This document shows positions 14,424 through 46,638 of a DNA stretch of 64,000 nucleotides, piece after piece. Made by a program: the position numbers and the translations under genes. Source of the DNA: Minisyncoccota bacterium (GTDB lineage: Bacteria > Patescibacteriota > Minisyncoccia > Phycocordibacterales > UBA918). The stretch is taken from NCBI GenBank assembly GCA_937975855.1, contig CALJTT010000004.1, positions 5,583 to 69,582 of the forward strand. The letters run 5' to 3'. Position 1 is the stretch's first letter. Every line of letters begins with the position of its first letter. The notes beneath the pieces were generated by a model. That model was given only the letters and a program-made list of their open reading frames with translations, did not search any database and was not told the origin of the DNA.

Positions 14424-15638
14424 TTATTCGTACCTAATCGCATCCAGTGGGTTCAAAGTAGAAGCTCGTCTTGCGGGAAATATTCCTGTTAGGTACCCAA
14501 CGGCAGCTGAGAATATAGCAATGAAAGCTAGGAAGTCCAAAGGAAAAGCAAATAATGAAACTGCCTGTCCACCATACTGACCCGCAATAAAGTTGAGGAA
14601 CAGGTTAACCGTTACCCCCAATATAACTCCCATCAAAATACCAGTCACTCCCCCTAGGAAACCTACAACGATTGATTCTGAAACAAAGAGATACTTCACG
14701 TCGTTTGGAGAGGCGCCAATTGTACGCATGATACCGATTTCTTTGGTCCGCTCTAGCAAGGTAACAGTCATGGTGTTGAACATACCGATAGCTGACACAA
14801 TAAGTGCAATTCCTCCAAATGTGGCCAAAACAGCCTGAATACCTTTGAAGATCTGCGTTGCTTGCTCAACAGTTTTTGATAAAGCGGTCACACGGTAACC
14901 TTCTTCAACTAGCCAAGCTTCCACCAAGGGTAGATTTTCGTTGTCCACAACATTAACCTGCACTCTTTCATATTCGTCGATGCCTACGTATTCACGCAAC
15001 TCTGGCAACATCATCAATGCGTTAAGAACGCCCTCTTCTTTGGTGATACCTTTTACTATGTATTCTTTGTCCAGAATAATCTCGTTGACCAAATCAGTTC
15101 CGTCATCCGCCGGTACCAGTAGACGAAAAGACACTCTTTCTCCAATAAAAGATTCGGCATCTTCGTCTTCAATTCCAAATAGTTTAAGCACCGCCGGTGA
15201 AAGCATGATCGACGAAGCGTCATTGATATCTTCTTCTACAAAAGCCTCTCCGGCACTAGGGGTAATACCGGCATATCGCAGATAGGCTGGCTCGGCACCT
15301 TGAACAAAAACGTTACCTGTCAGGCCTTTGTATGTGACCAAAGCTGGGAATCGCGCCAGCGGCGCTGCATCAACCACAGCCTCGTTTGCTTCAAATTTTT
15401 GAACAATTTCAGGTGTAAGGGTAAGACCTTGTGCGCCTGTAGCAGAAACACCTAATGACAACAAAGAGTCACCAAATACAATCTGCTCTAAGATAATTTG
15501 CTGCAAACCAAACCCTAGACCCACCAAAATAACCACTGCACCAGTTCCTACACCCATACCCAAAATCGTCAACCATGTACGCAACGGGTTGGTTTTAAAC
15601 ATTCGAGTGGATAGTTGCGCTAGGTCTTGAACTCGCAT
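14424..15638 (-). CDS. ABC transporter permease, MacB/FtsX family (N-terminal TM, large extracytoplasmic domain, C-terminal FtsX 3-TM bundle)
   Basis: 404-aa ORF. N-terminal TM LTILGMGVGTGAVVILVGLGFG. The C-terminus has FtsX-like helices (LATFGGIALIVSAIGMFNTMTVTLLERTKEIGIMRTIGA...). Placed 1 nt from the upstream ATPase gene. Confidence 0.7.
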   Translation of the reverse strand: MRVQDLAQLSTRMFKTNPLRTWLTILGMGVGTGAVVILVGLGFGLQQIILEQIVFGDSLLSLGVSATGAQGLTLTPEIVQKFEANEAVVDAAPLARFPALVTYKGLTGNVFVQGAEPAYLRYAGITPSAGEAFVEEDINDASSIMLSPAVLKLFGIEDEDAESFIGERVSFRLLVPADDGTDLVNEIILDKEYIVKGITKEEGVLNALMMLPELREYVGIDEYERVQVNVVDNENLPLVEAWLVEEGYRVTALSKTVEQATQIFKGIQAVLATFGGIALIVSAIGMFNTMTVTLLERTKEIGIMRTIGASPNDVKYLFVSESIVVGFLGGVTGILMGVILGVTVNLFLNFIAGQYGGQAVSLFAFPLDFLAFIAIFSAAVGYLTGIFPARRASTLNPLDAIRYE

Positions 15639-15639
15639 A

Positions 15640-16962
15640 TTACAGTTTGTAGCTTACGTCTACTCCTTGGGCAATAATTTTTTCGAAATATCTGGTCATG
15701 TCGTCGGCTTCGTTTTCTGAAAGCGCTAATCCTTTAGATCTGATCCCTTTCATTAACCTACTGTTGAACTCTTCGTCATTCGCTACACCAGTTACACGAT
15801 CAGCAATCAACTCGGTCATGTTTTCGTTTTGCTGTTTACTGAGCTTGATTCTGTGGTGATTTGCCAAGTGTTCACTCATGCGCTCGGCTAACTTGTCTTG
15901 CGAGAAGAAAATCGCGTCATTGTCTTTCCGCGCTCGGAAACGGCGAATATCATCAGAGTTTTTGATGATTCTTTCTGCCACTTTTGCCATACGCTTTGCT
16001 TCGTCTTCTGGAACCTCCACTCCCCCTCTTTCGCTTGGCTGCATAAGGCTTTTAATGAAAGAATCCCGATTGATTTTACCTTCGATGAACAAACCAACGG
16101 CGTGCTCCAGTCTGGCAATTTGTGAAAAAGTGTAGTCTTGTGTCAAAAAGTTGATCATACTTTTAACTCGCCAAGTTTCCACAGAGTCATATGGATACAA
16201 GCGTGCCAGCTGTTCTAGCTCAGTCACAATAGTCTCACCTTCACGAACAGGTTTGATCTGTTTTCGTTGTGGGTTAACCACTTCACGTAGGATTTTTCCG
16301 TCTTTGAGGTAATACACGCGGTGGGCGTAACTAAGGTGAGCCGCGTTATGTGACACCATAATAATAGTTCGTCGGTCGAACGTGTTAATTTCGTCAATCT
16401 TGTCCATCACCTGCTGGGTAGACACCGAGTCGAGGTTACCAGTCGGCTCGTCGGCCAGAAGAATCTTGGGATCGTTAACCATGCTGCGCGACACCGATAC
16501 ACGCTGCTGCTGACCTCCAGAAAGCATAGCGGGAATTTTGCCTGAGACGTGACCTACACCAAAGCGATCAAGCAGAGACTGGGCCCGGCGATCTCTGGTA
16601 GTTTTGTCAGCATCACAAAAAATCATCGGCAAAGCCACATTGTCGAGAACAGACAACGACATAATGAGGTTGAAGGACTGGAAAATAATACCCATCACGT
16701 GGCGCTGGAAGTAAACTCGCTCAGATGGAGGGTAAGAATAAACGTCATCCCCTTTTACCAACAAAGTGCCTTCACCTGGCGGTAGTGACCCCTGGATCGA
16801 ATACATGAGCGTGGATTTACCACACCCAGACGGACCAAAAAGAATGATGTATTCACCTTCGAAGATATCAGTGTTCACACCAGAAAGAGCCTTGAATTCA
16901 TTGCTTTTTCCTTGGTTATAGATGATCGATAGATCACGCGCTACGATAAGAGGCTTCGCCAT
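15640..16962 (-). CDS. ABC transporter ATP-binding protein (MacB/LolD-like) with an unusual ~200-aa C-terminal helical extension
   Basis: Walker A GPSGCGKST, signature LSGGQQQRVSVSRS, Walker B ILLADEPTGNLD, H-loop VSHN. After ~residue 235 there is an extra charged helical domain not typical of LolD/MacB ATPases. Confidence 0.75.
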   Translation of the reverse strand: MAKPLIVARDLSIIYNQGKSNEFKALSGVNTDIFEGEYIILFGPSGCGKSTLMYSIQGSLPPGEGTLLVKGDDVYSYPPSERVYFQRHVMGIIFQSFNLIMSLSVLDNVALPMIFCDADKTTRDRRAQSLLDRFGVGHVSGKIPAMLSGGQQQRVSVSRSMVNDPKILLADEPTGNLDSVSTQQVMDKIDEINTFDRRTIIMVSHNAAHLSYAHRVYYLKDGKILREVVNPQRKQIKPVREGETIVTELEQLARLYPYDSVETWRVKSMINFLTQDYTFSQIARLEHAVGLFIEGKINRDSFIKSLMQPSERGGVEVPEDEAKRMAKVAERIIKNSDDIRRFRARKDNDAIFFSQDKLAERMSEHLANHHRIKLSKQQNENMTELIADRVTGVANDEEFNSRLMKGIRSKGLALSENEADDMTRYFEKIIAQGVDVSYKL

Positions 16963-16965
16963 AAA

Positions 16966-18507
16966 CTATGCGCCAATCTTATTAACCCAACCAAACGTCG
17001 ATTCAAAGTTCTCGATAATCAAGTCGATGATGTTCTTTTCTTGGATCGGAGTGAACAGTACGAACTTTTCACTCTGAACTTGGTTACTCGCTTCGTCAAA
17101 ACAATTTAGCCAGAAAGTGTATACAGTTGCTGGAGCGAAGTCGATTATTACCTCGACATGTGTAGTGTTGTATTCGACCAACTCTTTCTCGATTTCGAAT
17201 TGCTCAGACGCACCAGAGGCTCCTTCTTCATACGTCATGATACAGCTAGCCGGTTCGTCAGTGACCCATTCAACAATCGTTTGAATACGCGATTCGCTAC
17301 CAGGGAACAAGGTCGAATCGTTAGTTACGTTAGTGATGATTGGTGGCTGTACGTCACGAACTGTAATGAACTGAATCGGCTGACTACGCACGCGGTCTCC
17401 GCCTGAGTTCTCGACGTTTACAAAAGCGACGTATCGGGTACCGAGCGTCAGGTCGGCAAGTCGCATTTGGTGAGTGGTAGCAAGGGTTGGCCGCCCAACA
17501 GAGTTCTGTGCCCCGGTGGTTTGGTCCTGGAAATCAATTAGGGCTTTGGTAGGAACGTTTGTGTCCCAAGCTAGAGTAGCGGCGTTTTCTTCAACTTTAA
17601 CTACACGAAGATTGCGGATTTCCGGTGCAGTGGCTTTGGTTTGAAAATCGTACACTCGACTTTCGCCAGTAATACCAAATTCGTCAGTTGAAAGTACCTT
17701 GAAACTATACTGGACAAAGGGATTTAGTCCGATGAGGCGGATTTCGTGGTCAGTAGTTTGCCCCTGTGTAGACGACTGGGAAAACTCAAAGTTCGTACCA
17801 TCAAACTGTGCTGTCGGTGAAAATAGTACTTCTGAACTGGCAGGCCGATCTGTTATCCATTTTACTAACGCAGTGTTGGTCTCAGGAATAACCGTCGGAG
17901 GACCAACAATAGTCAGATCCTCGGTGATACCCTTAATAGCCTTGACCGTTTCGTTGACAATTTCTTGCAAAACCTGAGGATTGGTAATTTCTTTGATTTC
18001 TTCGATGATTTCTTCAGATTTGATTTGTTCGTTGAATTTACCTGGCCCAATACCTGAACCGCTGCCGTCAGCCTCACCTGACTTTGGCGCTCCTGTTGTG
18101 TCGATGCGGTAGTCAGCAGAAATACCCTGGTTACCAAACTCGTCCGACGACACAACGCGGAAAAAGTAAGTACGACCAGGCTCCAAATCGTCTAAAGTTA
18201 TGGAGTGTTGCGTCTTATCAGCGACGGGAACACGGCTGATCCCATAGTTTGGCTGCAACCCGTAGTTAATTGCAGAGTCAGCTTCTTCGTCAGTTTCCCA
18301 AGTTATTTGCAGAGTTGATTCATCCACATTAATGATCTGCAGATTGGAGATTTCTGGCGGATCACGATCGTCTGATTGTGCAATAGCAAGACTTGGCATA
18401 CTCACTTGCAAAAGCAGCAAGAAAATTAAGAAGGTGTCTATAAAGAACCGGGATCTCATTGTTCTAATCCTAGCATGTGCTTGGTTGTGATTTAATAAGT
18501 AATTCAT
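16966..18507 (-). CDS. Secreted protein with ~4 fibronectin type III-like domains
   Basis: Signal (FLIFLLLLQVSMPSLAIAQS). Repeated FN3-like modules (PPEISNLQIINVDESTLQITWETD..., APEIRNLRVVKVEENAATLAWDT..., PPIITNVTNDS...IVEWVTDEP). Confidence 0.55.
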   Translation of the reverse strand: MNYLLNHNQAHARIRTMRSRFFIDTFLIFLLLLQVSMPSLAIAQSDDRDPPEISNLQIINVDESTLQITWETDEEADSAINYGLQPNYGISRVPVADKTQHSITLDDLEPGRTYFFRVVSSDEFGNQGISADYRIDTTGAPKSGEADGSGSGIGPGKFNEQIKSEEIIEEIKEITNPQVLQEIVNETVKAIKGITEDLTIVGPPTVIPETNTALVKWITDRPASSEVLFSPTAQFDGTNFEFSQSSTQGQTTDHEIRLIGLNPFVQYSFKVLSTDEFGITGESRVYDFQTKATAPEIRNLRVVKVEENAATLAWDTNVPTKALIDFQDQTTGAQNSVGRPTLATTHQMRLADLTLGTRYVAFVNVENSGGDRVRSQPIQFITVRDVQPPIITNVTNDSTLFPGSESRIQTIVEWVTDEPASCIMTYEEGASGASEQFEIEKELVEYNTTHVEVIIDFAPATVYTFWLNCFDEASNQVQSEKFVLFTPIQEKNIIDLIIENFESTFGWVNKIGA

Positions 18508-18510
18508 AGG

Positions 18511-21500
18511 TTAATCGCCGATTGCGGTAAATGAGTTGATGCCCGTATGGGGCCTGCTGGCTGAGCCGAACGGTACTTCAATACCCCAATATAAATTGTC
18601 AGTTACGCCAGGAGTTGTCGTTGTTGGCTTACTGAGATCAAGTTCAAGATTGGCTGGAGTTACAGTAAGTGCGCTACATCCCACACATGCTGCGTAGTTA
18701 AATGTACTAGTGGCGTACCTCTGCTGGGCTGCTGCGATCACAGAACTGGCGCCATCAGACATGTCAGTTCCTGCTATTTGTACGTCGATGGACTCGTTTC
18801 CGATGTTATGTAGGGTTACTGCCGGGTTGAAAGCCCCAGTGTTATTGGTCACCTCGACAACACCGTAGGCAATGCTGTTTTGTATATCTAGCGCTCGCAA
18901 CGTCAGCAACTCAACGCCGGTTGATGTCACAAAGTCTACCGCGCCAGTGGTGTCCTCGACCTCCATAAACGCAAACCATTCTTCTGCGCCATCTAGGTCA
19001 GTTGGATCGGCGTGGTAGACAATCGGCGCACTACACTGCAACGAACAAGCGTTAGTTGTACAGTTGGTGTAAGTACAGCTGCTGGTGGCCACATAACAAT
19101 TATTGTCATCTGGCGAACAAGCGGCTCCCACAGAAGTTTTGTAGAAAGTTGTTGTGGCGCTCACGATGTCCGCAATCCCGTTTAGATCAGTAACAGTTGT
19201 AGAGGCGATGATTTCTGTTGTAGTCCCGGCAGATAGTGAAATATCCAGTCCGTCGTTAAGAGAGAGTGAGCCGAGAACCGGATCGAAGCGCAATGTCAGT
19301 TCTGCAACCTCTAGATAAGTATCAAGTTCTGTACCTTGGTCGGTAACTCTGAAGCATAAATTCTGGTCGTCAACATTAATAGTTGGTGTGATTACATACT
19401 CGATTTCGGTGTACTCGAACATAGCGATATCCAAATCCCCAGTCTCATTTGACGGATCTTCCCTAAGCTCGCCAGCGGTGAATTGACCAGACACGTCGTT
19501 TAGCAGGTCGACAGTGGTTTCTCCATTAGTAACTTCGGTTGAAGTTTGCATACAGACTGGCGACAAGCCACAACTACTTTGAACAGGAACGTCCAAATAA
19601 CCAGCGGTCGACACAGCTTCACAACTTGGCGCTGACCCCTTTGGCACATATTCAAGTGCGAAGCGCTGAGCGGTGATCGCTCCACCGCTGTTTTCGACGG
19701 CCAATCGTAGCCTGGCAGTGTCGCCAGCCTCAAAGGTAGCGGCGGTATTTTGTTCAGCAGCCCATGTTGCTCCCCCGTCTGACTGCTCTGCACCAAAGCG
19801 AACGTTTGGCTTGCTAGTCATTGTCGGTCGTGAACTAAAGCTGTCCCAACCTCCGTTATGGAACCAGAATGTAAATCCATACCCACCAGTTGTGTAAGTA
19901 GAGTCCGAGGCTGAAAATGAAGTCACTTGTGTGCCGGCGTCGTTATACAATCGAAGGTCGAATGTGTCGTTCGTCCGCCAGTCAACTTCCACCTCGTACC
20001 AACCTGTTGTGTACGTAACAGTAGAAGAGCCAATGATGGTTCCTGACGCATCGTTCTCGACCGCGTCACGCACCAATGTGATACGGTCTGTTCCAAATTG
20101 CTCGATACACACAGCATAATTTTCGTTGGTGGATCCAGGAGACTGCACACCAAACAAGACACAGGTTTCGTCACTAGTACCTGCGCTGGTGTCGACATAC
20201 TGCTGGTAGCGGATTGTCTCACCTTGACTGACACTCTGGTCAAAGCGGTACATACCACCCAAAGTTGCCCGACTACTCTCATTGCCTGCGTTCCCAAGTC
20301 CGTACGTACCATCAAATGCGAAAGAAGCATCTGTAGCAAACAAAGCAGTTTGGCCAGTGTATTCTGCAATATCGTTGTCTTCAAAATCGTCAGCCGCGAC
20401 AAAAACTTGCTCGAGGTCGCTAGAGGACGTGGCAGACGGATTGTTGTAGTACATGTACAAAACGGTGTCAGACTCCGCTGGCATTGTTGGAACTTGAACC
20501 CATACTTCTACAATCGTGCTATCGGTTGAAGATCCGATCCAGTATGGAACCGTCGTGGTTCCGGTGTTGTCGGTGAAGCGCAAGTCGTCAAAGTCAGAGC
20601 GCATATCAGAATCGTAAGGAACTGTTACCTGAACAGCTACATCGGTATAGGTTGCCGCGTCAGCGTTGGTTAGGCGAACCGGCTGACGAGCGGCCCAATC
20701 TGTGTTCATCCATTCAATATCTGGTACCTGGGCGTTACCATCGTCGTTACGCCAACGGAAATCCGTCTGCTGAGTAATCAGACAAGAACTGTCGCCCCAC
20801 CGAACGGATCCACAATCTGTGGCGCCGTCGATATCGTACACTTCACCATCGAGATTTCCGACATGACTGGCAAATGTCCAAACATTACCCGTAACACCCG
20901 ACAGAGTAATGTTGTTACCCGTAATAGACGCCGACGTGGCGAACCGCGAGCCCGTGATAATCAATGACGCGTTGGCGTTAACTGTAGACGAAGACAAAGT
21001 CATCAGCGACCCGCCATCGACAGCCAGCTCGAAGTCACCGTAAGACAGCGAAGAAATAGTTGGCACTCCAGACAACTGCCAGCCGGCGGCATCAGTATTA
21101 CGCACCGAGTAATATAAGGCATTGAGTGCACCTGAGCTTACTGCAAATGAGTAAGTTCCAGATCCTTGATTGGTAATGTTTGTTTCGTTGCCTGCCTCAC
21201 CGACAATCTGTAACGATCCGCCGTCGACAGTTGCACTACTGTTGTCAGCCAACCGCACAGTCACGACACGCTCGCTGCCCGATAGGTCAGTACCATCAAA
21301 GTCAGTGGCGTAGCTCCAATATTCAGTTGTTGTAGAAATATGATAATCACCGTAAATATTCAAGTCTCCGTCAGCGCCAGCGTGGTCTTGGGAATACCAC
21401 GATGATGAACTTGGCACACTGACAGTTGTCGCGCTGCTGTTCCAGCTGGAGATGTCCGTATTTTCTCCCAAAACGAGTGTGTCATAAGCTTCGGTCGGGA

Positions 21501-24500
21501 TGGTCTTGTCGTTTGTTTCGTACTCGTTTGAACCGTCAAGTACTAATGTTGTGCTTGTCCAGGTTGTAGCTGCTCCACCGACGTCGTTGCTGAACACGCC
21601 ACCAACATACAGCACGCTGCCTGGAACCACTGTAAACGAACCAGCGTTACTCAAACTAAAGTTGTTAGTTGTGGTCGCGCTATCAGTCAAAGTCCAGCCA
21701 CCAGTACCAGCAATTACAACATTATAAAGGTCGTTAGCGCCAGGATCGATAAACTCGCCAGCGTCATTGGAATTAAATAATAGTGTGCCGGACGCGTGAC
21801 TGTACGTCCCGCCCGACACATCAAACGATCCGCCGATTGCCAACGTGCCGGTACCAACCGTAAATGTGCCACCGGTCAAAGTTAGGGAATCTAACAAACT
21901 AGCTGACATGTCAATCAGAGTGTAGTCACCGGCTGCAGCGGCGATCGTTAGACTGTTTAGGTCATTCCCAGAAAGCGTTACAAGGTTACCTCCGGTCGTA
22001 CTTGTTAACACAACCTCGCCGCCGGCGTGTGCAATTGTGCCATCGACCACAAAATCACCAGCCACAGTCAGCGTACCTGTAGGCAGCGTAACTGTTCCAT
22101 CGACAACTATAAACGAAGCTGTTGCTGTGGCTGTCGTGTCAGACATCGTCCAGGTCCCAGGACCCGAGAACAACACTTCGTTAGCGTCAGACCCACCAAA
22201 AGTTACGGTTTTACCGGCGACGGCCGAGTCAAAAAGTAAAGTTCCGCTGTTAGCGTCAAAGGCTCCGCCACTGTTTACAAACGACCCGCTGACAGTTGTC
22301 GTAGAGCTTGGCAGAGTCACAGTACCGTCAGTGATCAAGAAATTGTTATTGATGTCACCGTCAAGCATTGTCCAGTCACCACTGCCAGCGAATGCCAAAT
22401 TGTAGAAACCACTGTCGTTAGTGTCTACAGTCCGTCCCGCAGATGACGACGTAAAGGTTGTGCTAGAAGTTTGTGCATCAAAAGTTGCATCGGTTTCAGA
22501 AATAAGACTACCACCCAGGCTGTATACCTCGGCTGCCCCGCCGTCAAAGGTAGAGCCAGAGAGCAGTTTAAGAGTACCGTCGTAGTCCAGAGCACTGCCG
22601 CCGGTTACGGTCATGTCTCCTTGTGGTGCAAATGTTTTGTCTGTCCAGACTATCAATCCAAAGCCACTATCAACCGTCAACGTGTCTGGAGCAGAGTCAA
22701 CCGCTGTAAACGGAATAGCGGCGTCGTCTGAAGAGTCCCACACTGACATATCAGCAATCGTTAACGGGTCAGTTGCTTCGTGGCGCACAATTACGCGGTT
22801 TTGGTAAATATCGAAGTTGCTTATGTTCGAAACCGGGTCGGCTGTGACTGTAGCCCCTTCTTCGCCGGTAGCTGGCAGGAGATACGCAATGATTGAGTCC
22901 CCGGGTGAATATGTCACACCTGTCACGCTGTAAACACCACTACCGTCACAGGTAGAGCTATAAGTCGTCAAGCCAGCGACGACAACATTCACCGCTGTAG
23001 TTGCGCCATCACACACAGACGCGCCGGCGGTGGTTACACCTTCATCAGAGTACACCGTACCGGAAATAGTAATGTTTGCTGCCGAGTCGTCCCACGAAAC
23101 GTAACCTGGGTCGCCGTCAGGGTCTACGTCAAATCCTTCTCCAGCGATATCGCCGTAGTGGTTTGTGAAGCGCCATGAACTGACACTCGTGCCGGTCGCT
23201 GTTGCGCCAAAGCCACTAGCTGCGCCGTCGAGATACAGCTGATTAAGCGTAAACGCTTTGGCCGGATTGGCAGTAATAGCTGTTCCACCCACTGTCACCG
23301 CGCTACCTCCAGTTTGTGACACTCCGATAGAACCATGCGACAAAGAGCCGATCGACGCCGAGCCAGTGATAACTAAACCATCAATGTTCAAATCGCTTAA
23401 TGTGTAGTAGTCAAAAGTACTAGACGCCGTCCCGCCGATCGTCAATGCGTACGTGCCAGAACCTTGATTTTCTACAGTACTTGATGCACTTGCAGATCCT
23501 AGTACAGACAGCTGTCCGCCGGTGATGGTCACGCTACCGTTGTCAGCTATGTAAACCGAGGCTATGCGCTCACTGCCAGCTAGGCTGGTTCCGTCAAAGT
23601 CAGTAGCGTAGCTCCAGTGATCGTTAGCTGCTGTCTGGTTATACGATCCCCAGATGTACAGGTCGCCATCTACATTAGAGTGATCCTGAGAATACAACGA
23701 GGCTGTTGTGTCGACAGTATAACTAAGAGCGTCACTATTCCACATCCTGACCTGAGTTGTGCCGTCCACCTCAAGTGTCGCGTACGAGTCAGCGGTGGTA
23801 GATGCGTTAATGGCGTAATTGTTGCCTCCGTATAGTCGCAATGTGGAACCTGTCCACGTTGTGGGTGCTCCACCAATGTCGTTAAAGAACGTTCCGCCAA
23901 CAGACAGCGTTTGCCCGGAATTCAAAGTAAATGTATTTGCGTCGGTTAACAACCAGCTGTCTGTGGCTGTGGCATGTTCAGTTACTGTTACGTCGCCCGT
24001 AGCGTCGATAACAACATTTGCGAAATCACTGCTACCAGCAGCAACAGAGATCGCGCCCGACCCATCAAAAGTCAAAGTTCCTGTGCCGGCGGTTAGTACG
24101 CCATTATTGTCATAACTGCCAGCAATAGTGGTCGTGGCTAAGTCACTAAGTACCCAAACGCCATTTGATTCTATTGTCACGTCGCCATTTATGTCGAACT
24201 GCGGATCGTTGGTAGTTTGATCAAAAGTCGTGGCGGCCACACCTGCAATCACCAAATCGTTGTCGACAATAATACCTGGTGTACCCGTAGTGTATGTTGC
24301 CGGCGCGCCACTGGCTGCCAACGTCAGATTGTAATATTCGGTAGCGAGAACTTCCGAGCCGGGCCCGCTGTAGACAACTGTGCTGGTATCCGCCAAGAAC
24401 GTCCCCTCCTCCACAAAGACTACACCCGTGCCAGCCAAATCCCAGATAGTCGACCCGGCGTCAAGGAAGTGAGCCATCTCGATAGTCAAGACCCCACCGA

Positions 24501-27500
24501 TTGTGGTGGTGCTTGTAAACAGCGGTGTTGTTGTGCCGACTGACAAGGTGTCACCCAACTGCAAATTATGGAAAGTCCACGAACCAGCCCCACCAAGATT
24601 ATTGGCTACGGCCATTGTAGTTGTGCCGCCATTTAGCAACACCGTTCCTGCACCAGCAAAGTCGCCACTTTCAACATAGATATCACCATTGCCGGACAAT
24701 ACACCGTCAGTCATAAGTACATCACCGAGCACGCGAATATCAGCCGTCAAAGCCCAACCGCCGCCTGCACCATCAAACGTAAGATTGTTGAAAGTGACCT
24801 CATCGCCAGCCGTGATAAGTTTGCCAGTGGTCGAAGCGTTCATTAATACTGTGGTGCTGGCAGCATTGAATGTACTGCTCGCACCAAGAGTAAACCGCCC
24901 ACCGATAGCCAAAGTTGATGTAGCAAAAGCATTGAATGTAGCATTGTCGGCCAAAGTTAGTGAACCATCGTAACTGGTGCCAGCACCTTCGCCGGCCAGG
25001 GTCACTTCTCCGCCTGGAGTAAAGGTAGTGGAAGCCCAAACATACAACTCGTTTCCAGACAGCACAGTCAAGGTGTCAGAGTCTGTGTTCGTGGCAGCGA
25101 CAAATTGCAAATCGACATCTTCACTATTGTCGCGCACGGCCAGTTGATTAATTGTCAATGCTGCCAAATCTTCGTGACGGACAATCACACGGTTCGCATA
25201 AATATCGGCATCAAGAATGTTGGCCGTCGGTGTGCGAGTGATGATGCTTCCCTGTTCGCCGCCTGCCGCGTTGTTTAGATAGATGGTCAAGGCGGGGTCT
25301 CCAACAATGGTAATACCGCTGATACTGTAAGCCCCGGTGCCGGCATCACACGATCCTGTGTAGGGTGCTGGATTTCCTTCCACATAGACATTTACAACCG
25401 CGGTAGCCCCGTCACAGGTAGGTCCTCCCAAAGGTGTAACGCCCGCGTCAGCATAAACAGTTCCTGCCATGGTGATCACCAACAAACTGTCGTCGAAGCG
25501 TATAGACCCCGGGTCACCTGTGTCGCTGTCGTTTGATTCACCATACAAGTTTCCGGCGCCACTTCTGAACCACCAATATGACAAAGGTGTTCCGTCCGTC
25601 TGGGACACGTTGGTAGCAAATATCGCCGAAGTTGTGGAGAAGGAAATTTCGTATAGTTGATTAGCCGGATTTGCATCAATAGTAGTCGAAGAAAGCGTAA
25701 GCGCCGTCCCAGCCACGGCGTCGACTTGGTAAGAACCATTTTCGAATACCCCAACTGAGACCGCGTCCAGTAGTGACAGACCCGTGCTACCCAGGTTACT
25801 AAACGTATGATATTGCGCGTCGAATGTACCGCCAGAAACAGTGACGTTGTAAGTTCCACTTCCTTGATTGGCAACAGTTGTCGATGCCGCAAAGTCGCCG
25901 ATGATTTCGAAAGTCACAGAGTCGAAATCTGCGCTGGCGCCATCGGCAAATCGCACGTTCGCTTGCCTTTGTGCCGAAAGTGCTGCGAGATCAGTTCCGT
26001 CAAAGTCAGTAGCGTAGCTCCAGTACTCATTGCCGCCGGCTATGTTGTAATTTCCAAATATATATAAGTCACCATCGATCGCACCGTGGTCTTGTGAATA
26101 AAGCGAGCCAGTAGCGTCAACGTCATAGACAACAGCATCTGAGTTCCACATTTTGATGTCAGTGTCGTTTGCCACCCTTATCGTGCCATAGGTATCTCCA
26201 GGGTCTGTTTCGTTGTTTATGCTATAGGCACCAGCCTCGAGAGACAACGTGCTGCCTGTCCAGGTCGTAGAAGCTCCGCCCACATAGTTGTGAAATTCCC
26301 CTGCTACCGAAAGTGATTCCCCTGACTGCATCGTGAAGTCGCTGCTGCTAGCGAGGGTAAATGTGCCAGTTGTAGTTGCCGACGACACAACAGTCCAGCC
26401 GCCAGTCTCACTGGCGATCAGCACGTCATGGAGTGGATCTGCGCCAAAGTCGATAGTCTCTCCATTGTCGAGCGAGTCAAAGACTACCAAGCTTGTACCT
26501 GCACTCACGGTTGCCTGGTTGTCGTACGACCCACCGATTGTGAATGTGTCAGGTAAAGTCAGCGCACCGCCGTAAACAAACAGATCGCCAGTCGCCAGAG
26601 CGTTGGTGTCAGAGAAACTCCAGCTGCCAATTCCGTCAAACACCACGTTGTTGAAACTAGAGCCACTGGTGGTCAAGACTTCTGCGACACTACTATAGAA
26701 ACGTGTAGTTCCGGTTCCGCCATCAAAACTGCCCGAGTCCGCCACCAATGACCCACCAATAGCAAACACGCCGCTTGGGAACAAGACACTGCCCTGGAGA
26801 ATATTTACATCATTGGTGGAAGTAGCGTTTGTATCGGTCATAGTCCAGGTACCAGCACCTTCGAAAGTCATGTTGTGAGCCACATTTGTAAACTCGGCAC
26901 CGTCGAATGTGATGTTTTCTGGGCCGTCGGACGTAAAGTACAGTACGCCGTTATTATGCAAAAACGCACCGCCGGTTGAGTCAAACGAACCGTCAATTGT
27001 AGTGGTAGCAGTCGGTAGGGTCACCGTTCCAGTTGCAATGGTGAGATTATTGTTAACGAACACTTCCGTTTCAGCAAAGGACCATGAGCCCCCAACCCCA
27101 GTGAAAGACAGATCATAAAACGCGTCGGCTGCCGAAATGATCACATGACTGGTCGTCGTTGCAACAAAGAACACCTCACCTTGCCTAGCTACAAAAGCGT
27201 TATTGTTAGTCCAGTCGCCGTACACGTACAGATCGTAGTTGTTTGATGACGCGTCTAGAGTGTCGTCAATACCAATGGTTATCGACTGCGCAGCAACATC
27301 ACTGCCCAAGGAGATTATTTTTGAACTACCGTCAATCACAACATGTCCGATATTTTGTAGCGTTACATTTTTGTCTGACCAAATAGATGCAGAGTTTCCA
27401 TCCAGAGTGGTCGTGCCAATACCTGTCCAAAAACCAGTTGCGCCAGTAGTTATGTCTCCCACAACATTAATGCTGGTTGTAGCCCGAGCAAGGGTTCCAG

Positions 27501-30500
27501 TTTCAACGGTCAGATTACCATTAACGTCAAGCAAGGGTGACACTGTCCAAATCGCACTACTGGTAGTCGAACCAAAGGTCAGGCTGCCAAACGTAGTCGT
27601 TGCGCCAGTGTTGTCAATCACCTCATTTCCGACCAAGGCGCTAAATAAAACTGTCGAGTCGCTTAGGCTTGTTGTTGCACTATTTTCCCATGAACCAGAA
27701 ACTTCCATCGAATGCGTTTCCAGCGTGAAGGAGCCGTTATTTTCAAAGTCATGAGTGATAATGTCACCCTCTGGCTGATAAAGCGCGCCAGACTTTATAT
27801 AAAGTTCAGCATCAGTACAACCGGCGTCAGCACAAGTATTTAATACACTACCAGAGAGGGACAAGAACACGTCTTCATCGTTAGTAAAGGTGTAGCTGCC
27901 AATATCAAGGTTGGTAAGCGGTGTCGAAGTTGCGTCGTTAGAGCCAATACTGACATGCCTTTCATATAACTCGAATCCGTCTATGTCGCCAATTCCGTCA
28001 TATAAAGTAACACCAACAGCCTCAGCTGCGTCTGCAGCCCCAGAGACAAATACTGTAACGATGTCACCGGGGAAAACTGTGACATTGTCGATTGACCAGA
28101 CTCCCGCGGAAATAGTCCCGACCTTACCAGCCTGCAGCACACCATTAACAGCCACGACGACGTTACCGCTAGTCACGTTGGTGGATTGATCGTAACCTTG
28201 GGCAGTTCCTGAAATCGTCAATCCTGCCGCCCAGGTTACAGCCCAGTCGTACATTTCTGGACAGTTACCCGAACCATCACAAGCCAGCTCTGCAAATGGA
28301 CGAACTACGTTGTATGTAAATCGGTCTAGACCCGACAAGTCAATTGGGCTAGTGGTGGTTCCAAGCTCGTTAACCGGCAGGTCGCTTGGTGGGATCATCT
28401 GCCAGCTATTGGTAGCGGACAAATATTGTACAAAGTAGCGTATTTCACTTGTGCCGGGCTGGAAATCGTTCCAGGCAAATTCTTGCCAGTACGGACCGGT
28501 TCCGTCTTCAAAATAAACTGGCGGACTGACAATCGTGCTACCTGTGCTACCTGGCTGACGAGCACCTATATCGTACGGACGACCGTACGGGCTAGTGTCT
28601 ACAGACACATTTGTAACCAGATCAACAGTCGTGCTCCAGCTAGATCCATTCCAAGTAGAGAAGCGCAACGTGTCGTTAGCGTTGTCCAAAAATGCACCAA
28701 GAATGAGACCTTCGCCCATACGCTCTAGCTGCATAGTGGCGGTATTAATGATTGTGTTCACTTGAGTCTCGGCACTCCAGGCTGTATTGTTGTACGTTTG
28801 GTAGTTAGTGGCCGTAGCATCGCTGTACGTCAACATGATGTGATTGTCGCGGCCGGAAGTTGTCTCGAAAGAACAGTCAAAGCTGGGCTCAGTCTTTACA
28901 CTGGCTGTTTCTAGATTATCGTCGAGCGTCCAGGCTGCTCCATCCCACCTTACGACCGCAATATCACTAGTATCATCAACCAGACAAAGGGCCATGTCGT
29001 CAGAACCTTCGTCTCGTACGAGCGACCCCCACTCAAAGTCGTTACCAATAGTTTGATTCGCCGCAGCGCTCCAAGCGGTGCCGTTCCAACTACTCCAGGT
29101 GAAGCGGGCTGGATTACCATCAGAAGCAACTATCACAGCCTGGCCACCACTCTCTTCGTATTCCAAAGCCATACCGGCATACGCCGATTCAGTAATTCGA
29201 CCAAGCGTAGTTGGGTTACCCCAAGCAGACCCATCCCACACCTGAGCTTCAAATGGGTTCCCGTCTGACCCACGCACCATAATCACCATTTCGTCAGATG
29301 TTGGATTGGCGGCCAGTTCTATCCAGGTACAGTTGGTTGTCTCGGCTACATTTATAGTCCCACCACTGGTCCAGGTCGTGCCGTCCCACACATAATAAGA
29401 TGGATCAGCGTCACCATCACAATATACGGCAATTGCATCACCCGATAATGTTTCGTACTCGACATCAAACCCACGGGCACTGATGTCGCTAACACTGGTT
29501 GTGAGTTCTTGTTGGCTGCGCCATTCTCCAATTGTGTAAGTTTGAGCATTGATGTCAGCGTCAGTTCCAAGTGTTACAGCAATATACTCTTCCCGTGTAG
29601 GAGCAGCTTTCACTACAGACCATTTTAGTGGTGCTGAGATGTCTAACAATGTCCCCTCCTCAGACAAAACTGTACCTGTCCACAACCGATAACGCGGTTC
29701 GGTTTCAATTCCTTCACCATAGACAATCATCGCCTCGGTAGCGGTGGTCGCCACGGTCAAATACCCAGCTTCAGTCGAAATAGTACCGGAAAGAATATCA
29801 GTATCGAATTGATCTTTTGTGGTTTGGAACCAGGTCGAGACGTCAGTTCCGGGAATAACGGTCAGGCTGCGCTCAACCGTCCAAAATGAATAGACATTGT
29901 CACCAGTTGGATCTTTGGCTCGGACGCGCCACCAATATGTGGTCGTACCAGTCAAAGCATCAGCTGGTTGGATCTCAAAGCGAATGCGCTCGTTAGCGTT
30001 GAAAGGGCTGGTGTCAGCGCCAGTTACGATATTGGTAAACCCACCGTCGACATCTGATGTGCGGGTAGTTGATGCTGCAAAATCACGGTCTGTTGACCAG
30101 GAAATTTGGTAAGTCAAATCTTCGCTTTGCGGATCGTCTGCCACAAACTCAAAGGTTGGAGTTGTCGTTCCTACCTGCTCGTTGGCAAACAAACTGAAAA
30201 TAGTTGGTGTCTCTACTTTGTAACCCCAATTAATAGTCCAGTCTTGCAAAGTTGGAGAACCGCCACTGTTAGTGAAAGTGGCGACCACTCGCAAGGTGTC
30301 GTACTCGCCGGTATCAACATCCAGTAAGGGCACGGGCGAGGTGCCGAACCCGCTACTATTTCCAGGCAGTGCAGAATCAGGAACTAGGGACCAGGCGCTG
30401 CCGTCGTAATATTCGATTTGATAAGAAATGCTGCCCGTGGTTTCAACGTCGGTAAAAACAAAGTCCTCCCAAACTGTTCCGTTAACGCCGTCAAAGAACA

Positions 30501-33500
30501 CAATTGATTCACTAGTTAAAGTTCCAGTTGTTGATCCAGTTATCAATTGAACAGAATCGCCAGACACCTCTACACCATCAAGAGCACCAGCTTGGAACTG
30601 CTCGTTTTCTGTCTGGAACCAAGCAGTGGCCAGTAATGTCGCATCTACAGTAAAGTTATAGATCTCTGACCAGTTACCCCAACTATTTGAACCTTCTGGG
30701 TCGCGAGCTTGAATGCGCCAGTAGTACGTAGTGCCGTCTGTAAAAGAGACTACTGGGGTGAACTTCATCTGCTCGCCATGCCTGAATGGAGCTTTGTCAG
30801 CCACAAGCACCTGGTTCTCGAACTGTGAAGAGTTTGAAATGGTATTTTTGGCAACCAGCGGAGAACCAAACGCAGGATCATCGTCGATCTCAATAGAGTA
30901 ATGTACGTTGTCACCCTCGTCATCAAACGCAGTGAAGTAGAACTCTTGGGTAGTGCTGGCGGTCTTTTCACTTATAAATGGCTTATCCAGAGTTAAAGTG
31001 TCTGGCGAAAAATTCGTTAACAGTTGCGGGTAGTGATTATAGGAAAAGAAAACTGTTCCGTCAGCTTGAACCAGCCGAAAACAATACTGCGTACCGGCCG
31101 AGGCACCATTGTGCTCTAATACAAAGTCCCATTCCCCTACGTCGCTAACTGCTATTTCGTTTGGCGTTGACGAAGCAAGCGCGTCCTCTTCATAGGTCGC
31201 CACCACCGTAGAAGAAGACAATAACGTCGATGGTAAAGTTGCGCCGTCAGCAATACCGCCAACGTTGTATCCACGCCAAATCGCTGCAGAGGCCACATCT
31301 CCCACATCAGTCCAGGTTGCAGCAAAACTACAAACGCTAGCTTCAGCAAATTGTAATTTAAAGTCAGACCCAATAGTAGAAGTGGCGTTTGTGACCTCGG
31401 TGTTTAAACGCAAGCGAACCACATCGCCATCTGCCACAGGTGTGCTGGTGGCAGTGATCGGCTCGCGCTCTATTAGATCTACTCCCCCGCCATCATTTGG
31501 CCAAGGTTCAGTCGGAGTCAAACTGGCTGCATTTGCATACCATCGTGAAGATAACTGCGTGTAAACCGGATCAACTCCCTGACGTTTTCCGAATCGCACC
31601 GTTACATACGGCGGCAGATGGTCGTCAGTTGAGAAGTCGGTAGCGTCAACCTGGTGAGTATGTGCACCAGCCGAACCAGAACTGCCCGAACGAGCATTGA
31701 TCGTCGCACTTGGGCCCGACGATGTTATTCCCAGCGCGTCAGCATGTGTATGACTTTGAACGTCACCAGTTGCGCCATATGTAGCAGCCGCTTTGATAAA
31801 CCGATTTGAAAACGCGTCGCCGTCATCAGAAACAGACACCCAGCCTCCATCGACATCTTCATCCCACATGGCAATCAGTCCGTTTGGTGGTGCGTCGTCA
31901 GCACTTAGTTCAGCCAGTAGAATCTCGATGAACGGAGGCTGATTATCAACACTGTCACTGTTCGAGTTAACGGTGTGATTGTGGGTGTCAGTTGCCCCTG
32001 ACTGTTGTGACCCACCACCTCGAATTCTGGTTCCTGCGCCGGCTGCGTTAGCTGTAGTCCCTGTAATACCATGCGTGTGAGTGTTGGATCCAGCAGTGGT
32101 ACCTGGAGTATCTTCGCCGTAGACGTACTTGCCGTCTTGTGCCGCGTAGCGATTCCAGCCAGCAGGCAGGCTAGAGGAAGCCGTGTCGAACATAGCAATT
32201 GCGCCGGCTGGAATAGTTGTTGGTTCACCAGCAGCCACATCGTAGCGAATAACCCGCAGCTGTCTATATTCGGGAAGGTTTGATTCTGAACTGATGGTTG
32301 GTGTGTACGTATGAGTATGACTGACAGGCGCAACCGCTCCAGAACCACTTTCTGTAGACGCTGCTGCAGAACCCAAAACCGAACCAACGGCAGTGTGCGT
32401 GTGAGTAGCAGCGCCACCAGTGTTGTTGTAAGTGGAGCTGGCGACAATAAAGCGCTGGTAAAAAGGATCAGCCGGGGCACAAGATACACACACCCAGTCG
32501 GTCGGGATACTGGCGCCAGAGTCCCAGAAAAGCAACATCTTACCAACTGCATCTGATGCGATTTGCCATTGCCGATGCTCTACAAACGAGATGTTAGAAG
32601 AACCTGTGGTACTGGCAGTGCGAACAACATCACCCTGCAACTCTGCTGCTCCCAGCACAAACAGGAATGGAGATATGTCAGGGGCGTCAAACTGATAAGA
32701 GACCTCAATCGATTCCCCTGCAGACACAGACACGTCCCAGGTCAAAACCTGATCGTCATTGTCGATAGTAATTGAAGCGTCCGTATCGAATATTTCAAAA
32801 TCTTTGGGGACTCGTTCGGTTAATGTTCCATCAAAACCCGCGCTACTGTCGACAGTTAGAATCATCGGGTACGCAGCTGGTGGATAAATACGAGTAGGCC
32901 CTTCTCGCGAAATAGACACATCTTGCGTTTCAACCACCCTAAAGGTGTCGCTGGTGAAACTAAGAACCTCACCATCGTCGCTTAGTCGTTCTAGATAAAG
33001 TTTATATTCGCCGGGTATACCAGCAGTTGAACTAGCCAGGAAATCTGGCACGTCGATTACGTTATTGCCATCACACAAGCCAGATTCGACTACCGGCAGA
33101 CGCTCGATCACACCCGCAGGATCAGTTACATACAAGTCGATGTTCGCTGAACAGATGGTGTGTCCAGTAGGGGTAATTGCACCAACAGAGAAATTGACAG
33201 ACTCGCCGGTAGCGTATTCTGTCTTGTTAGAGTTGATTGTCAAAATTCCCCACTGAAAACTGAAAGTGTCGATTGTCTGCTTGCCTCCTTCGTTCAGGGT
33301 CAGTTCGATTTCGTATTCACCAGGACGTAAATTTACGAGTTGCGCATCAGGAATTTTTATATCGAACTTACCATCTGGTGTCACCGACACCTCTGGTTGT
33401 AGTGGCATCGGTCCATAAGACTTGTGACTAACCAGAACATTCTCCACTTCTACCATGTCTGACCTGAGTATTGATCTGAACCCTCGCACTAGCGCGTTGC

Positions 33501-43577: not shown

Positions 43578-44014
43578 ACCAAACGCCGCAGAGTGCCAGT
43601 AACCACACCCCATACGTGAACATCATCAGCGTCACCAATGGGAATCGGTGCGTAACCTTCTTTGGCTGAAACCAGCTTACTCTGTGATGAAGTTTTATAT
43701 AACTGCTTAACGACAAGTTCACCGTAGACTGCCGCCACAACTATGGACAGATGTTCCGCTGGAACTGAACGATCTACTACCAAAACATCTCCGTCAAAGA
43801 TTCGCTTTCCTTCCATAGAGTCACCGCTGACACGCACAAAGAAAGTCGCAGTCTCGTTATCGATCATTAGATCATTTAAATTCAAAGGTCTTTCAACCAC
43901 ATCGTCGCCAGGAGTTGGAAAGCCAGCCGCTGGCTGTACGTCGTACAAAGGGGCTTCCACACCATCCACCTCCGCCTTGTTTACCTTTGTGACATTCGAG
44001 TCAGTTACTTTCAT
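43574..44014 (-). CDS. umuD: UmuD-like S24 LexA-family self-cleaving peptidase subunit
   Basis: MKVTDSNVTK... with an A-G cleavage site context (QPAAGFP), the catalytic Ser motif (VSGDSMEG) and a Lys (VVKQLYK). ~146 aa, so UmuD-sized rather than LexA. ATGA overlap with umuC. Confidence 0.7.
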   Translation of the reverse strand: MKVTDSNVTKVNKAEVDGVEAPLYDVQPAAGFPTPGDDVVERPLNLNDLMIDNETATFFVRVSGDSMEGKRIFDGDVLVVDRSVPAEHLSIVVAAVYGELVVKQLYKTSSQSKLVSAKEGYAPIPIGDADDVHVWGVVTGTLRRLV

Positions 44015-44043
44015 TCTTATGAGTATATATGAGTATATAAAAA

Positions 44044-44058
44044 CTGCACTTTGTGCAG
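44044..44058 (-). promoter_or_regulatory. Perfect palindrome CTGCAC-N3-GTGCAG ~30 nt upstream of umuD start. Candidate SOS/LexA-type operator overlapping the promoter. Adjacent tandem direct repeat GAGTATATAT x2 (44021..44040) gives a duplicated TATA-like -10.
   Basis: Read directly: ctgcactttgtgcag. Lies between umuD ATG (44014) and the upstream gene end (44082). Confidence 0.4.
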
Positions 44059-44081
44059 CATCAACACCCACGTAAATTTGA

Positions 44082-45264: not shown

Positions 45265-46638
<1,374 letters not shown>

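What the first reader, a model, noticed from the sequence alone, without database searches (positions are those of the whole stretch)
20700..28500. Three tandem ~2.4-kb in-frame super-repeats inside the giant gene
The repeat anchor SLYSQDH...DGDLYI.G.Y...WSYATDFDGT occurs three times at ~2.3-2.4-kb spacing, with long colinear similarity around it. The copies have diverged at the protein level but remain clearly related. This implies ancient duplications, and it is also a classic hotspot for recombination-driven length variation and for assembly collapse.
Basis: seen in the sequence. Interest (0 to 1): 0.55.

Follow-up and report, generated by a model that had tools for sequence, protein, structure and literature searches.

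The report
Ancient triplicated block in giant surface protein
A 5,516-residue surface protein of an ultra-small (Patescibacteria) bacterium contains three old, diverged copies of an ~800-residue block, and related genomes keep the same three copies at nearly the same spacing, so it is a stable design feature and not an unstable repeat.

Summary
One minus-strand ORF (window 18511-35061, 5,516 aa) contains three tandem in-frame copies of a 765-910-aa block. The YSQDH/WSYATDFDGT anchors lie 2,406 and 2,298 nt apart. Copies align colinearly at 33-45% amino-acid identity (BLASTP E 1e-40 to 1e-63), far above shuffled controls.

Each unit is a ~130-aa beta-sandwich-like domain, then a run of ~75-aa sub-repeats predicted as a beta-solenoid, then a ~300-aa conserved "anchor" module. 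No module matches Pfam or NCBIfam.

"Ancient duplication" is supported. Third codon positions are near saturation (29-37% identity). In 154 of 162 cases an anchor's nearest relative is the same-position anchor of another genome.

"Hotspot for length variation and assembly collapse" is not supported. The longest exact DNA words shared between copies are 31, 12 and 11 nt. About 55 related loci in Patescibacteria genomes all have three anchors, spaced 787-815 aa in 53 of 55 loci (units 1-2) and 762-774 aa in all 55 (units 2-3).

My best reading is a fixed-length beta-solenoid shaft in a conserved, membrane-anchored giant surface protein. Its gene neighbourhood (cohesin-like, FN3, MacB-type ABC transporter) is also conserved. 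Function is inferred, not shown. Interest is modest.

The parts
18511..35061 (-). Giant ORF of 5,516 aa. It has an N-terminal hydrophobic segment (KSLALTLVVVFLISIL), then an acidic low-complexity linker, Ig/FN3-like regions, the three super-repeat units, and a ~750-aa C-terminal region containing DUF2341.
   Evidence: ORF list and translation. From aa ~400 to the C-terminus it aligns colinearly, with few gaps, to 13 complete related proteins at 44-59% identity.
25465..28194 (-). Super-repeat unit 1 (aa ~2290-3199). Diverged beta-sandwich at aa ~2300-2435 (nt 27757-28161), ~75-aa beta-helix sub-repeats at aa ~2440-2899 (nt 26365-27744), and anchor 1 at aa 2900-3199 (nt 25465-26364).
   Evidence: Self-comparison. 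HHalign of the upstream beta-sandwich against the m3 domains: probability 98.6%, E 6e-16. Sub-repeat HMM hits. Anchor HMM score 493 bits.
23062..25464 (-). Super-repeat unit 2 (aa 3200-4000). Beta-sandwich plus first coils, called 'm3', at aa 3200-3443 (nt 24733-25464), beta-helix sub-repeats at aa 3444-3701 (nt 23959-24732), and anchor 2 at aa 3702-4000 (nt 23062-23958).
   Evidence: Anchor 2 is 45% identical to anchor 1.
20767..23061 (-). Super-repeat unit 3 (aa 4001-4765). m3 at aa 4001-4245 (nt 22327-23061), beta-helix sub-repeats at aa 4246-4467 (nt 21661-22326), and anchor 3 at aa 4468-4765 (nt 20767-21660). Anchor 3 carries a position-specific Cys in place of Pro (TDCG for GDPG).
   Evidence: The position-specific P-to-C signature is conserved in at least 85% of related proteins.
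20368..20595 (-). DUF2341 domain (aa 4823-4898), immediately downstream of unit 3. It lies in the C-terminal region whose length is conserved: last anchor start to C-terminus is 1,046-1,068 aa in related giants.
   Evidence: Pfam PF10102, E 1.4e-17. Tail-length conservation.
35159..36697 (-). Upstream neighbour, a cohesin-like/Big_13 protein (512 aa). Conserved next to the giant gene in the related loci whose fetched DNA reaches that far.
   Evidence: Pfam. tblastn hits immediately upstream of the giant ORF in 12 loci, 54-69% identity.
14424..18507 (-). Downstream conserved neighbours: FN3/purple-acid-phosphatase-N protein (16966-18507), ABC ATPase (15640-16962), and MacB/FtsX-type permease (14424-15638).
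   Evidence: Pfam. FN3 protein found downstream in 48 of 71 loci (66-73% identity among the best hits). ABC ATPase found in 44 of 71 loci (80-84% identity among the best hits).

Best explanation
The region encodes three ancient tandem copies of a ~765-910-aa composite block. Each block is a beta-sandwich domain, then a beta-solenoid built from ~75-aa sub-repeats, then a ~300-aa conserved 'anchor' module that is an elaborated part of the same solenoid.

The block was triplicated in an ancestor of a clade of Patescibacteria (Parcubacteria/Paceibacteria-type) giant surface proteins, starting from a single-anchor architecture. Since then it has been held at three copies with almost invariant unit length.

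The most likely role is structural. The three units stack end to end into a rigid shaft of defined length. This shaft holds the conserved C-terminal DUF2341-containing region away from the N-terminal membrane anchor. The three anchors would then be regularly spaced conserved surfaces for ligand, partner or self contacts.

Shown here: the repeats, their age, the conservation of copy number and spacing, the conserved gene neighbourhood, and a confident all-beta prediction. Inferred: surface location, the shaft or ruler role, and adhesion or host contact.
For: - Repeats and their significance.
- Hierarchical repeat: about 20 significant matches to a ~75-aa sub-repeat HMM between aa 2440 and 4645, including the start of each anchor.
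- Age: third codon positions are 29-37% identical. Same-position anchors of different genomes are nearest neighbours in 154 of 162 cases. Single-anchor paralogues are equidistant from the three positions.
- Length constraint: anchor spacing is 787-815 aa in 53 of 55 loci and 762-774 aa in 55 of 55 loci. 26 of 29 representatives of 5,000 aa or more have three anchors, and the distance from the last anchor to the C-terminus is 1,046-1,068 aa.
- Conserved protein: colinear alignment with few gaps from aa ~400 onward to 13 complete related proteins.
- Fold: AlphaFold2 of unit 1 from aa 2630 to 3445 has mean pLDDT 80. Its first ~560 residues are mostly above 90 and consist of a short strand about every 8 residues. 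The anchor alone gives pLDDT 87.8 and pTM 0.85, all-beta. Foldseek lists are dominated by right-handed beta-helix proteins such as tapirin, PL3 and PL6 lyases, tailspikes, Ag43 and Hbp.
- Surface context: an N-terminal hydrophobic segment, and neighbours with cohesin, dockerin, FN3 and Ig domains plus a MacB-type ABC transporter, in a conserved order.
- Literature: Patescibacteria proteins over 4,000 aa that carry FhaB and/or DUF2341 domains have been interpreted as adhesion or host-interaction proteins (PMC11809585).
Against: - No Foldseek match is significant. The best E-values are 0.025 (whole unit, PDB), 0.072 (anchor, PDB) and 0.018 (anchor, viral), so the beta-helix assignment rests on the AlphaFold2 strand pattern and the composition of the hit lists.
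- No model coordinates were available, so shaft continuity and length could not be measured.
- The beta-sandwich/m3 part was modelled poorly: pLDDT is about 55-80 over its first ~90 residues and mostly below 50 after that.
- 34 anchor residues are at least 95% conserved across 162 anchors, including Asp, Glu and Arg (D120, D122, R133, E276, D279). That is more than a passive spacer would seem to need, and it fits binding or catalysis.
- There is no experimental or expression evidence for surface location.
- Unit number is not absolutely fixed in the wider family: one, two and five or more anchors occur.
Confidence: 0.6

Rival explanations
1. This is a recombination-prone repeat array. The three copies promote unequal homologous recombination, so unit number varies between strains and short-read assemblies may collapse the region.
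For: - Tandem in-frame arrangement.
- A 31-nt exact word is shared by units 1 and 2 at the WSYATDFDGT site.
- In a few other genomes, units 2 and 3 are closer to each other than to their same-position counterparts elsewhere (L022 77%, L031 72%, L041 64%), which suggests occasional gene conversion.
- One related locus has two units (L052), and other family members have one, two or at least five anchors.
Against: - Nucleotide identity between copies is 48-52%, with near-saturated third positions. The longest shared words are 31, 12 and 11 nt.
- About 55 independent assemblies all show three units with near-identical spacing.
- The window's spacing equals the family medians.
- Length differences among the giants map upstream of the first anchor.
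Confidence: 0.05
2. The anchors are enzymatic or ligand-binding modules. Each would be a Ca2+-dependent polysaccharide lyase/hydrolase-like or lectin-like site on a beta-helix scaffold, so the protein carries three active sites for attacking or gripping a host cell envelope. Triplication would then serve valency or dosage, not length.
For: - 34 residues are at least 95% conserved across 162 anchors, including D120, F121, D122, G123, R133, E276 and D279, plus a D-x-D...GDPG...WDDS acidic motif.
- The Foldseek lists contain PL3 pectate lyases, PL6 alginate lyases, chondroitinase B and phage depolymerase tailspikes.
- Known beta-helix lyases use Asp-bound Ca2+ and an Arg or Lys base (established knowledge).
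Against: - All structural matches are non-significant (E at least 0.018, TM-scores at most ~0.35).
- There is no Pfam or NCBIfam hit to any lyase, hydrolase or lectin family even at E up to 5.
- No PDB sequence relative was found with the anchor profile.
- Active-site geometry could not be inspected.
- The tight conservation of spacing is not explained by valency alone.
Confidence: 0.2
3. The apparent repeats are compositional or convergent similarity between unrelated T/S/G-rich beta-helix stretches, or an assembly artefact that joined paralogous fragments.
For: - The region is rich in T, S, G and N, and contains many short beta-helix sub-repeats that could inflate similarity scores.
- Metagenome-derived homologues are often fragmentary.
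Against: - Colinear alignments of 300-600 aa reach E 1e-40 to 1e-63 with composition-based statistics on.
- An identical 10-residue word occurs three times.
- Composition-preserving shuffles give a maximum window score of 61 against 165 observed.
- The same three-unit order and spacing recur in about 55 independent assemblies.
- The ORF is uninterrupted and colinear with complete related proteins.
Confidence: 0.01

Closest known systems
Right-handed parallel beta-helix surface proteins and fibres: autotransporter passengers Ag43 and Hbp, TpsA/FHA-type exoproteins, Caldicellulosiruptor tapirins, phage tailspikes
   Same: Predicted all-beta solenoid made of short stacked strands. Large extracellular adhesin-like context. 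These proteins dominate the Foldseek lists.
   Different: No significant structural or sequence match. No TPS, haemagglutinin-repeat, autotransporter beta-domain or Beta_helix Pfam hit. The host clade is a Patescibacteria group, whose cells are thought to be monoderm. Here the solenoid is organised as three ~800-aa higher-order units, each with its own beta-sandwich and anchor.
Patescibacteria proteins over 4,000 aa carrying FhaB and/or DUF2341 domains (noted in PMC11809585)
   Same: Same phylum, same size class, a DUF2341 domain is present, and adhesion or host interaction is inferred.
   Different: That paper found no full-length homologues of its own proteins and proposed rapid domain reshuffling. 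The family here is the opposite case: colinear and length-conserved across dozens of genomes, with no FhaB domain detected.
Giant repeat adhesins with many near-identical tandem Ig-like repeats (RTX/BAP-type, such as SiiE, LapA, MpIBP, Ebh)
   Same: Giant surface proteins in which tandem repeats act as an extender between the cell anchor and distal binding domains.
   Different: Those proteins have tens to more than 100 repeats of ~100 aa, often more than 90% identical, with known copy-number variation (established knowledge). Here there are three units of ~800 aa at 33-45% identity with a fixed number.
Omnitrophota giant proteins with large beta-helix segments (bioRxiv 10.1101/2023.11.21.568195)
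   Same: Very long genes in uncultivated, possibly host-dependent bacteria, with predicted beta-helix segments.
   Different: Different phylum, much larger proteins (tens of thousands of aa), an antiparallel beta-helix with paired helices, and no homology shown.

Membership tests
Tandem in-frame super-repeat (the finding itself) | At least three colinear homologous blocks, head to tail, in one reading frame, with similarity above chance | tested here: met
   Offsets of 802 and 766 aa, E 1e-40 to 1e-63. Shuffle control: maximum window score 61 against 165 observed.
Recombination-prone or copy-number-variable repeat array | Long stretches of high DNA identity between copies | tested here: not met
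   48-52% nucleotide identity between copies. Longest exact shared words are 31, 12 and 11 nt.
Recombination-prone or copy-number-variable repeat array | Copy number differs among related genomes | tested here: not met
   Three anchors in about 55 related loci, and in 26 of 29 representatives of 5,000 aa or more. Exceptions: L052 has two units and some divergent paralogues differ. Strain-level variation was not testable.
Pectate-lyase-like right-handed beta-helix superfamily | Sequence match to a family HMM (Beta_helix, NosD, Pec_lyase and others) | tested here: not met
   No Pfam or NCBIfam hit in any module at E up to 5.
Pectate-lyase-like right-handed beta-helix superfamily | Three-dimensional fold of stacked three-stranded coils, with a significant structural match | tested here: inconclusive
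   The AlphaFold2 strand pattern fits. Foldseek lists are nearly all beta-helix proteins, but the best E-values are 0.018-0.07.
TpsA/FhaB-type exoproteins | N-terminal TPS (Haemagg_act) domain and filamentous-haemagglutinin repeats | tested here: not met
   No such Pfam hits anywhere in the 5,516-aa protein.
DUF2341-containing proteins (PF10102) | Match to PF10102 above the gathering score | tested here: met
   64.3 bits against a cutoff of 23.4, at aa 4823-4898. The domain lies outside the super-repeats.
Conserved Patescibacteria giant-protein orthologue group (defined here) | Order m3-helix-anchor repeated three times, a ~1,050-aa tail after the last anchor start, and the neighbours cohesin-like, FN3 and ABC/FtsX | tested here: met
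   The window has spacings of 802 and 766 aa and a tail of 1,049 aa. The neighbours are present and syntenic with the related loci.

The most novel reading that the evidence does not exclude
The three-unit shaft, the conserved ~1,050-aa C-terminal region and the conserved cohesin-like, FN3 and MacB-type ABC neighbours together encode a previously undescribed, clade-wide surface organelle of Paceibacteria-type episymbionts. In this reading the fixed unit number and length act as a molecular ruler that sets the distance to the host cell. The three invariant anchor surfaces would be catalytic or docking sites that engage the host envelope.
Probability: 0.2. Interest if true: 0.65.

Novelty: new member of a known kind. 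Interest (0 to 1): 0.35.

Why it matters
Patescibacteria have genomes of roughly 1 Mb (general knowledge). A 16.5-kb gene kept colinear and length-conserved across dozens of species is therefore a large investment, and it is a plausible handle on how these mostly uncultivated, host-dependent cells contact their hosts.

The result also corrects an easy misreading. Tandem repeats in giant genes are usually flagged as unstable or as assembly risks. Here the repeat is one of the most length-stable parts of the protein.

The three modules have no Pfam or NCBIfam model. The alignments made here (anchor profile A3: 479 representative clusters at E up to 1e-3) could seed new domain families.

Tried and rejected
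- Whole-protein BLASTP against itself returned only the identity hit. I replaced it with chunked BLASTP with the query chunk masked.
- Pfam and NCBIfam scans of the whole protein and of individual modules found nothing in the repeats.
- A PDB sequence search with the anchor profile gave only noise, with E at least 0.35.
- Foldseek of the whole unit and of the anchor against PDB and BFVD gave no significant match.
- An exact-sequence lookup of the neighbouring FN3 protein, meant to identify the source contig, found no record.
- A metagenome scan for near-identical relatives, meant to test strain-level copy number, found nothing closer than 60% identity.
- Tandem Repeats Finder cannot see the super-repeat, because its longest period is 500 nt and the copies are too diverged.
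- I first read unit 3 as truncated because it seemed to lack the m3 module. I rejected that after HHalign showed a diverged m3-like domain upstream of unit 1, which re-phases the array into three complete units.
- I rejected a rank-49 Foldseek hit to NosD of the NosDFY ABC system as evidence for a link to the adjacent ABC transporter. It is a generic beta-helix match with E 1.9.
- Literature searches found no description of this family.
Full report
**Observation.** The finding lies inside one minus-strand ORF, window 18511-35061, encoding 5,516 aa. The quoted anchor motif occurs three times. YSQDH is at aa 2988, 3790 and 4556 (nt 26100, 23694, 21396), and WSYATDFDGT is at aa 3014, 3816 and 4582. 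The spacings are 802 aa (2,406 nt) and 766 aa (2,298 nt), so all copies are in frame.

Chunked BLASTP of the protein against itself gives long colinear matches at offsets of about 800, 766 and 1,568 aa, with 33-45% identity and E 1e-40 to 1e-63. A BLOSUM62 diagonal scan ranks offsets 1568, 802, 765 and 766 first. Shuffles of the same region reach a maximum window score of 61, against 165 observed, and at most 15 high-scoring windows per offset, against 107-154 observed. The DNA repeat finder recovers the same 2,298 and 2,406 nt spacing as short 64-82% identical patches. The only literal deviation is that copy 3 reads SWYSQDH...DGDLNIYGDY.

**Anatomy.** A three-way alignment and module HMMs show that each unit has three parts:
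- a ~245-aa module ("m3"), whose first ~130 aa look like a beta-sandwich and whose last ~100 aa already match the sub-repeats;
- a run of ~75-aa sub-repeats (F.NL.F.G.G.W...GT.TLP...T..GSF...G.F...G.L.F), also seen as 228-nt DNA periodicity (family D3);
- a ~300-aa highly conserved anchor. Its first ~70 aa are again a sub-repeat, so it is an elaborated stretch of the same solenoid and not a separate globular insert.

About 20 significant sub-repeat matches lie between aa 2440 and 4645. The array is therefore hierarchical: a sub-repeat of ~75 aa inside a super-repeat of ~800 aa.

At first unit 3 seemed to lack m3. However, a profile of the region upstream of unit 1 (aa ~2300-2435) aligns to the m3 beta-sandwich profiles with 98.6% probability (E 6e-16). 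Phased as [m3 - helix - anchor], there are three complete units:
- aa 2290-3199 (nt 25465-28194)
- aa 3200-4000 (nt 23062-25464)
- aa 4001-4765 (nt 20767-23061)

Pfam and NCBIfam find nothing in any module. The only confident Pfam domain nearby is DUF2341 at aa 4823-4898.

**Age of the duplication.** Codon-aligned nucleotide identity between units is 48-52%. Third positions are 29-37% identical, which is near saturation. The longest exact shared DNA words are 31 nt (units 1-2), 12 nt (units 1-3) and 11 nt (units 2-3).

A scan of one genome per species (GTDB-based collection) with the anchor alignment found 169 relatives, of which 71 loci were fetched. All but two carry Patescibacteria-type labels: Kaiserbacteria, Paceibacteria, Parcubacteria, Adlerbacteria, Lloydbacteria, Elulimicrobium, and many binner-labelled "Saccharibacteria". 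The two exceptions are labelled Neomarinimicrobiota and Gammaproteobacteria and are probably mis-binned.

HMM mapping on the stop-to-stop ORFs of these loci shows the order anchor-m3-anchor-m3-anchor in about 55 of them. The ORFs that lie wholly within the fetched DNA are about 5,440-5,910 aa. Among the 54 proteins with three regularly spaced anchors (53 loci plus the window), the nearest neighbour of an anchor is the same-position anchor of another genome in 154 of 162 cases. Single-anchor paralogues, which have C-terminal tails of 420-460 or 630-720 aa, score about equally against positions 1, 2 and 3. The triplication therefore happened inside the giant-protein lineage and predates the divergence of all these genomes.

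**Stability.** Anchor 1-2 spacing is 787-815 aa in 53 of 55 loci (median 798). Anchor 2-3 spacing is 762-774 aa in 55 of 55 loci (median 768). The two outliers in 1-2 spacing (L032 and L060) have the first anchor split by about 300-330 aa of inserted sequence.

An exhaustive profile search of 1.84 billion representative proteins found 479 clusters at E up to 1e-3. Of the 29 representatives of 5,000 aa or more, 26 have three anchors at the same spacing, and the distance from the last anchor to the C-terminus is 1,046-1,068 aa. Total length ranges from 5,310 to 7,696 aa because the part upstream of the first anchor varies.

The window protein aligns colinearly, with few gaps, from aa ~400 to the end with 13 complete related proteins at 44-59% identity. 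This is the opposite of a length-variable hotspot, and the window's own spacing matches the family medians, which argues against assembly collapse.

Four qualifications apply:
- Units 2 and 3 are unusually similar to each other in L022, L031 and L041 (64-77% identity), which suggests occasional gene conversion.
- L052 has only two units, with a normal ~1,055-aa tail.
- More distant family members have one, two or at least five anchors.
- No relative closer than ~60% identity was found in the metagenome collection, so within-species variation is untested.

**Structure and context.** AlphaFold2 of the stretch aa 2630-3445 (the sub-repeat run and anchor of unit 1 plus the m3 of unit 2), using 39 aligned sequences, gave mean pLDDT 80. 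Its first ~560 residues are mostly above 90 and consist of a short strand about every 8 residues. The m3 part was modelled poorly. The anchor alone gave pLDDT 87.8 and pTM 0.85, is all-beta, and includes a long hairpin.

Foldseek against PDB and BFVD found no significant match (best E 0.025, 0.072 and 0.018). The lists are nonetheless almost entirely right-handed beta-helix proteins: tapirin, PL3 and PL6 lyases, tailspikes, Ag43 and Hbp. The beta-solenoid assignment is therefore likely but not proven.

The protein starts with a single hydrophobic segment followed by an acidic low-complexity linker. It has no LPXTG-like C-terminus.

The gene order is conserved: cohesin-like protein, giant gene, FN3/PAP_N protein, ABC ATPase, MacB/FtsX permease. 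The FN3 protein is found in 48 of 71 loci and the ABC ATPase in 44 of 71 loci, the latter at 80-84% identity among the best hits. The rest of the window is rich in cohesin, dockerin, Ig-like, sortase and other envelope-related genes.

**Interpretation.** The best-supported reading is an anciently triplicated structural block forming a fixed-length beta-solenoid shaft in a conserved, membrane-anchored giant surface protein. This protein is probably part of the host-contact apparatus of these ultra-small bacteria.

The repeats, their age, their stability and the synteny are shown. Surface location, shaft geometry and adhesion are inferred. The main live rival is that the anchors are binding or catalytic sites. 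It rests on 34 residues that are at least 95% conserved across 162 anchors, including acidic residues and an Arg, and on the lyase-rich but non-significant Foldseek lists.

Published work notes that Patescibacteria proteins over 4,000 aa often carry FhaB and/or DUF2341 domains and may be adhesins, but it found no conserved full-length family (PMC11809585). I found no description of this particular family.

**Verdict.** The "recombination hotspot or assembly-collapse" reading is not supported. As a kind of feature it is ordinary: an internal block duplication in a giant repetitive surface protein. What is worth noting is how strictly the unit number and unit length are conserved across a broad uncultivated clade, and that all three modules are unannotated. 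Interest 0.35.

Noticed in passing
window ~31590-32650 (-), aa ~804-1156 of the giant protein: A separate set of ~110-aa internal repeats (offsets 108 and ~220 aa, E 1e-5 to 1e-7). They carry His-rich motifs (THTHT, THTHG, THNHT, SHTHA, AHTHQ), each followed by an LP.Y/PPF/PPY motif. From memory this resembles phage tail-collar or HxH fibre motifs, but there is no Pfam hit.
   Followed up: partly
window ~29700-31010 (-), aa ~1351-1785; also aa 1509-1612 against aa 2171-2277: A duplicated ~263-aa block (E 4e-18) containing Ig/FN3-like domains (Ig_Rha78A_N, E 6e-7). A ~105-aa segment is repeated 662 aa downstream (E 2e-12), just before super-repeat unit 1.
   Followed up: partly
window ~28930-29470 (-), aa ~1864-2044: Trp-rich ~50/99-aa repeats (W.G..W motifs such as YVWDGTTWTSG, QVWDGSAWGNP, WNGTAWSAA, RWDGAAWTLD) that suggest a beta-propeller-like domain. 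No Pfam match.
   Followed up: no
window 14424-18507 and 35159-36697; loci L001-L071: The gene order cohesin-like, giant gene, FN3/PAP_N protein, ABC ATPase (440 aa), MacB/FtsX permease is conserved across many Patescibacteria genomes. The ABC ATPase is 80-84% identical among the best hits, much more conserved than the giant protein.
   Followed up: partly
L032 aa 1784-2397; L060 aa 884-1510; P0059, P0065, P0068, P0070: In some lineages anchor 1 is split by about 300-330 aa of inserted sequence (L032, L060), which raises anchor 1-2 spacing. Spacings of 1,113-1,244 aa are seen in L032 and in P0059, P0065, P0068 and P0070; L060 reaches 1,501 aa. Anchor 2-3 spacing stays at ~765 aa.
   Followed up: partly
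L022, L031, L041 (anchors 2 and 3); L040 (anchors 1 and 2); L062 (anchors 2 and 3): In these genomes, anchors within one protein are more similar to each other (64-77%) than to same-position anchors of other genomes. This suggests lineage-specific gene conversion or re-duplication.
   Followed up: partly
L069 (contig labelled Gammaproteobacteria) and L052: L069 encodes a relative with at least five anchors at irregular spacing of ~1,280-1,480 aa. L052 encodes a two-unit version with the normal ~1,055-aa tail. The 'Gammaproteobacteria' and many 'Saccharibacteria' labels are probably binning or taxonomy artefacts.
   Followed up: partly
window 45688-45747 (+), inside ORF 45265-46638: A perfect CCAGAA x10 hexanucleotide repeat, in frame as (Pro-Glu)10, in a protein with a weak GH26 match. 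Unlike the super-repeats, this is a true slippage-prone simple repeat.
   Followed up: no
window 46695-52727 (-): A second large gene (2,010 aa) with GSDH beta-propeller, PKD, CBM_4_9, Big_7 x3 and Big_13 domains. It is followed by a family-2 glycosyltransferase, a sortase and a Lamin-tail-domain protein that contains a 21-nt tandem repeat (55640-55749).
   Followed up: no
window 42321-44071 (-): A UmuC-like (IMS/IMS_C/DUF4113) and UmuD-like (Peptidase_S24) gene pair, that is, an SOS-type translesion polymerase operon in a reduced genome.
   Followed up: no
window 27239-27754 (+): A 171-aa antisense ORF inside unit 1 of the giant gene. It is most likely spurious, because the opposite strand is the conserved coding frame.
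   Followed up: no
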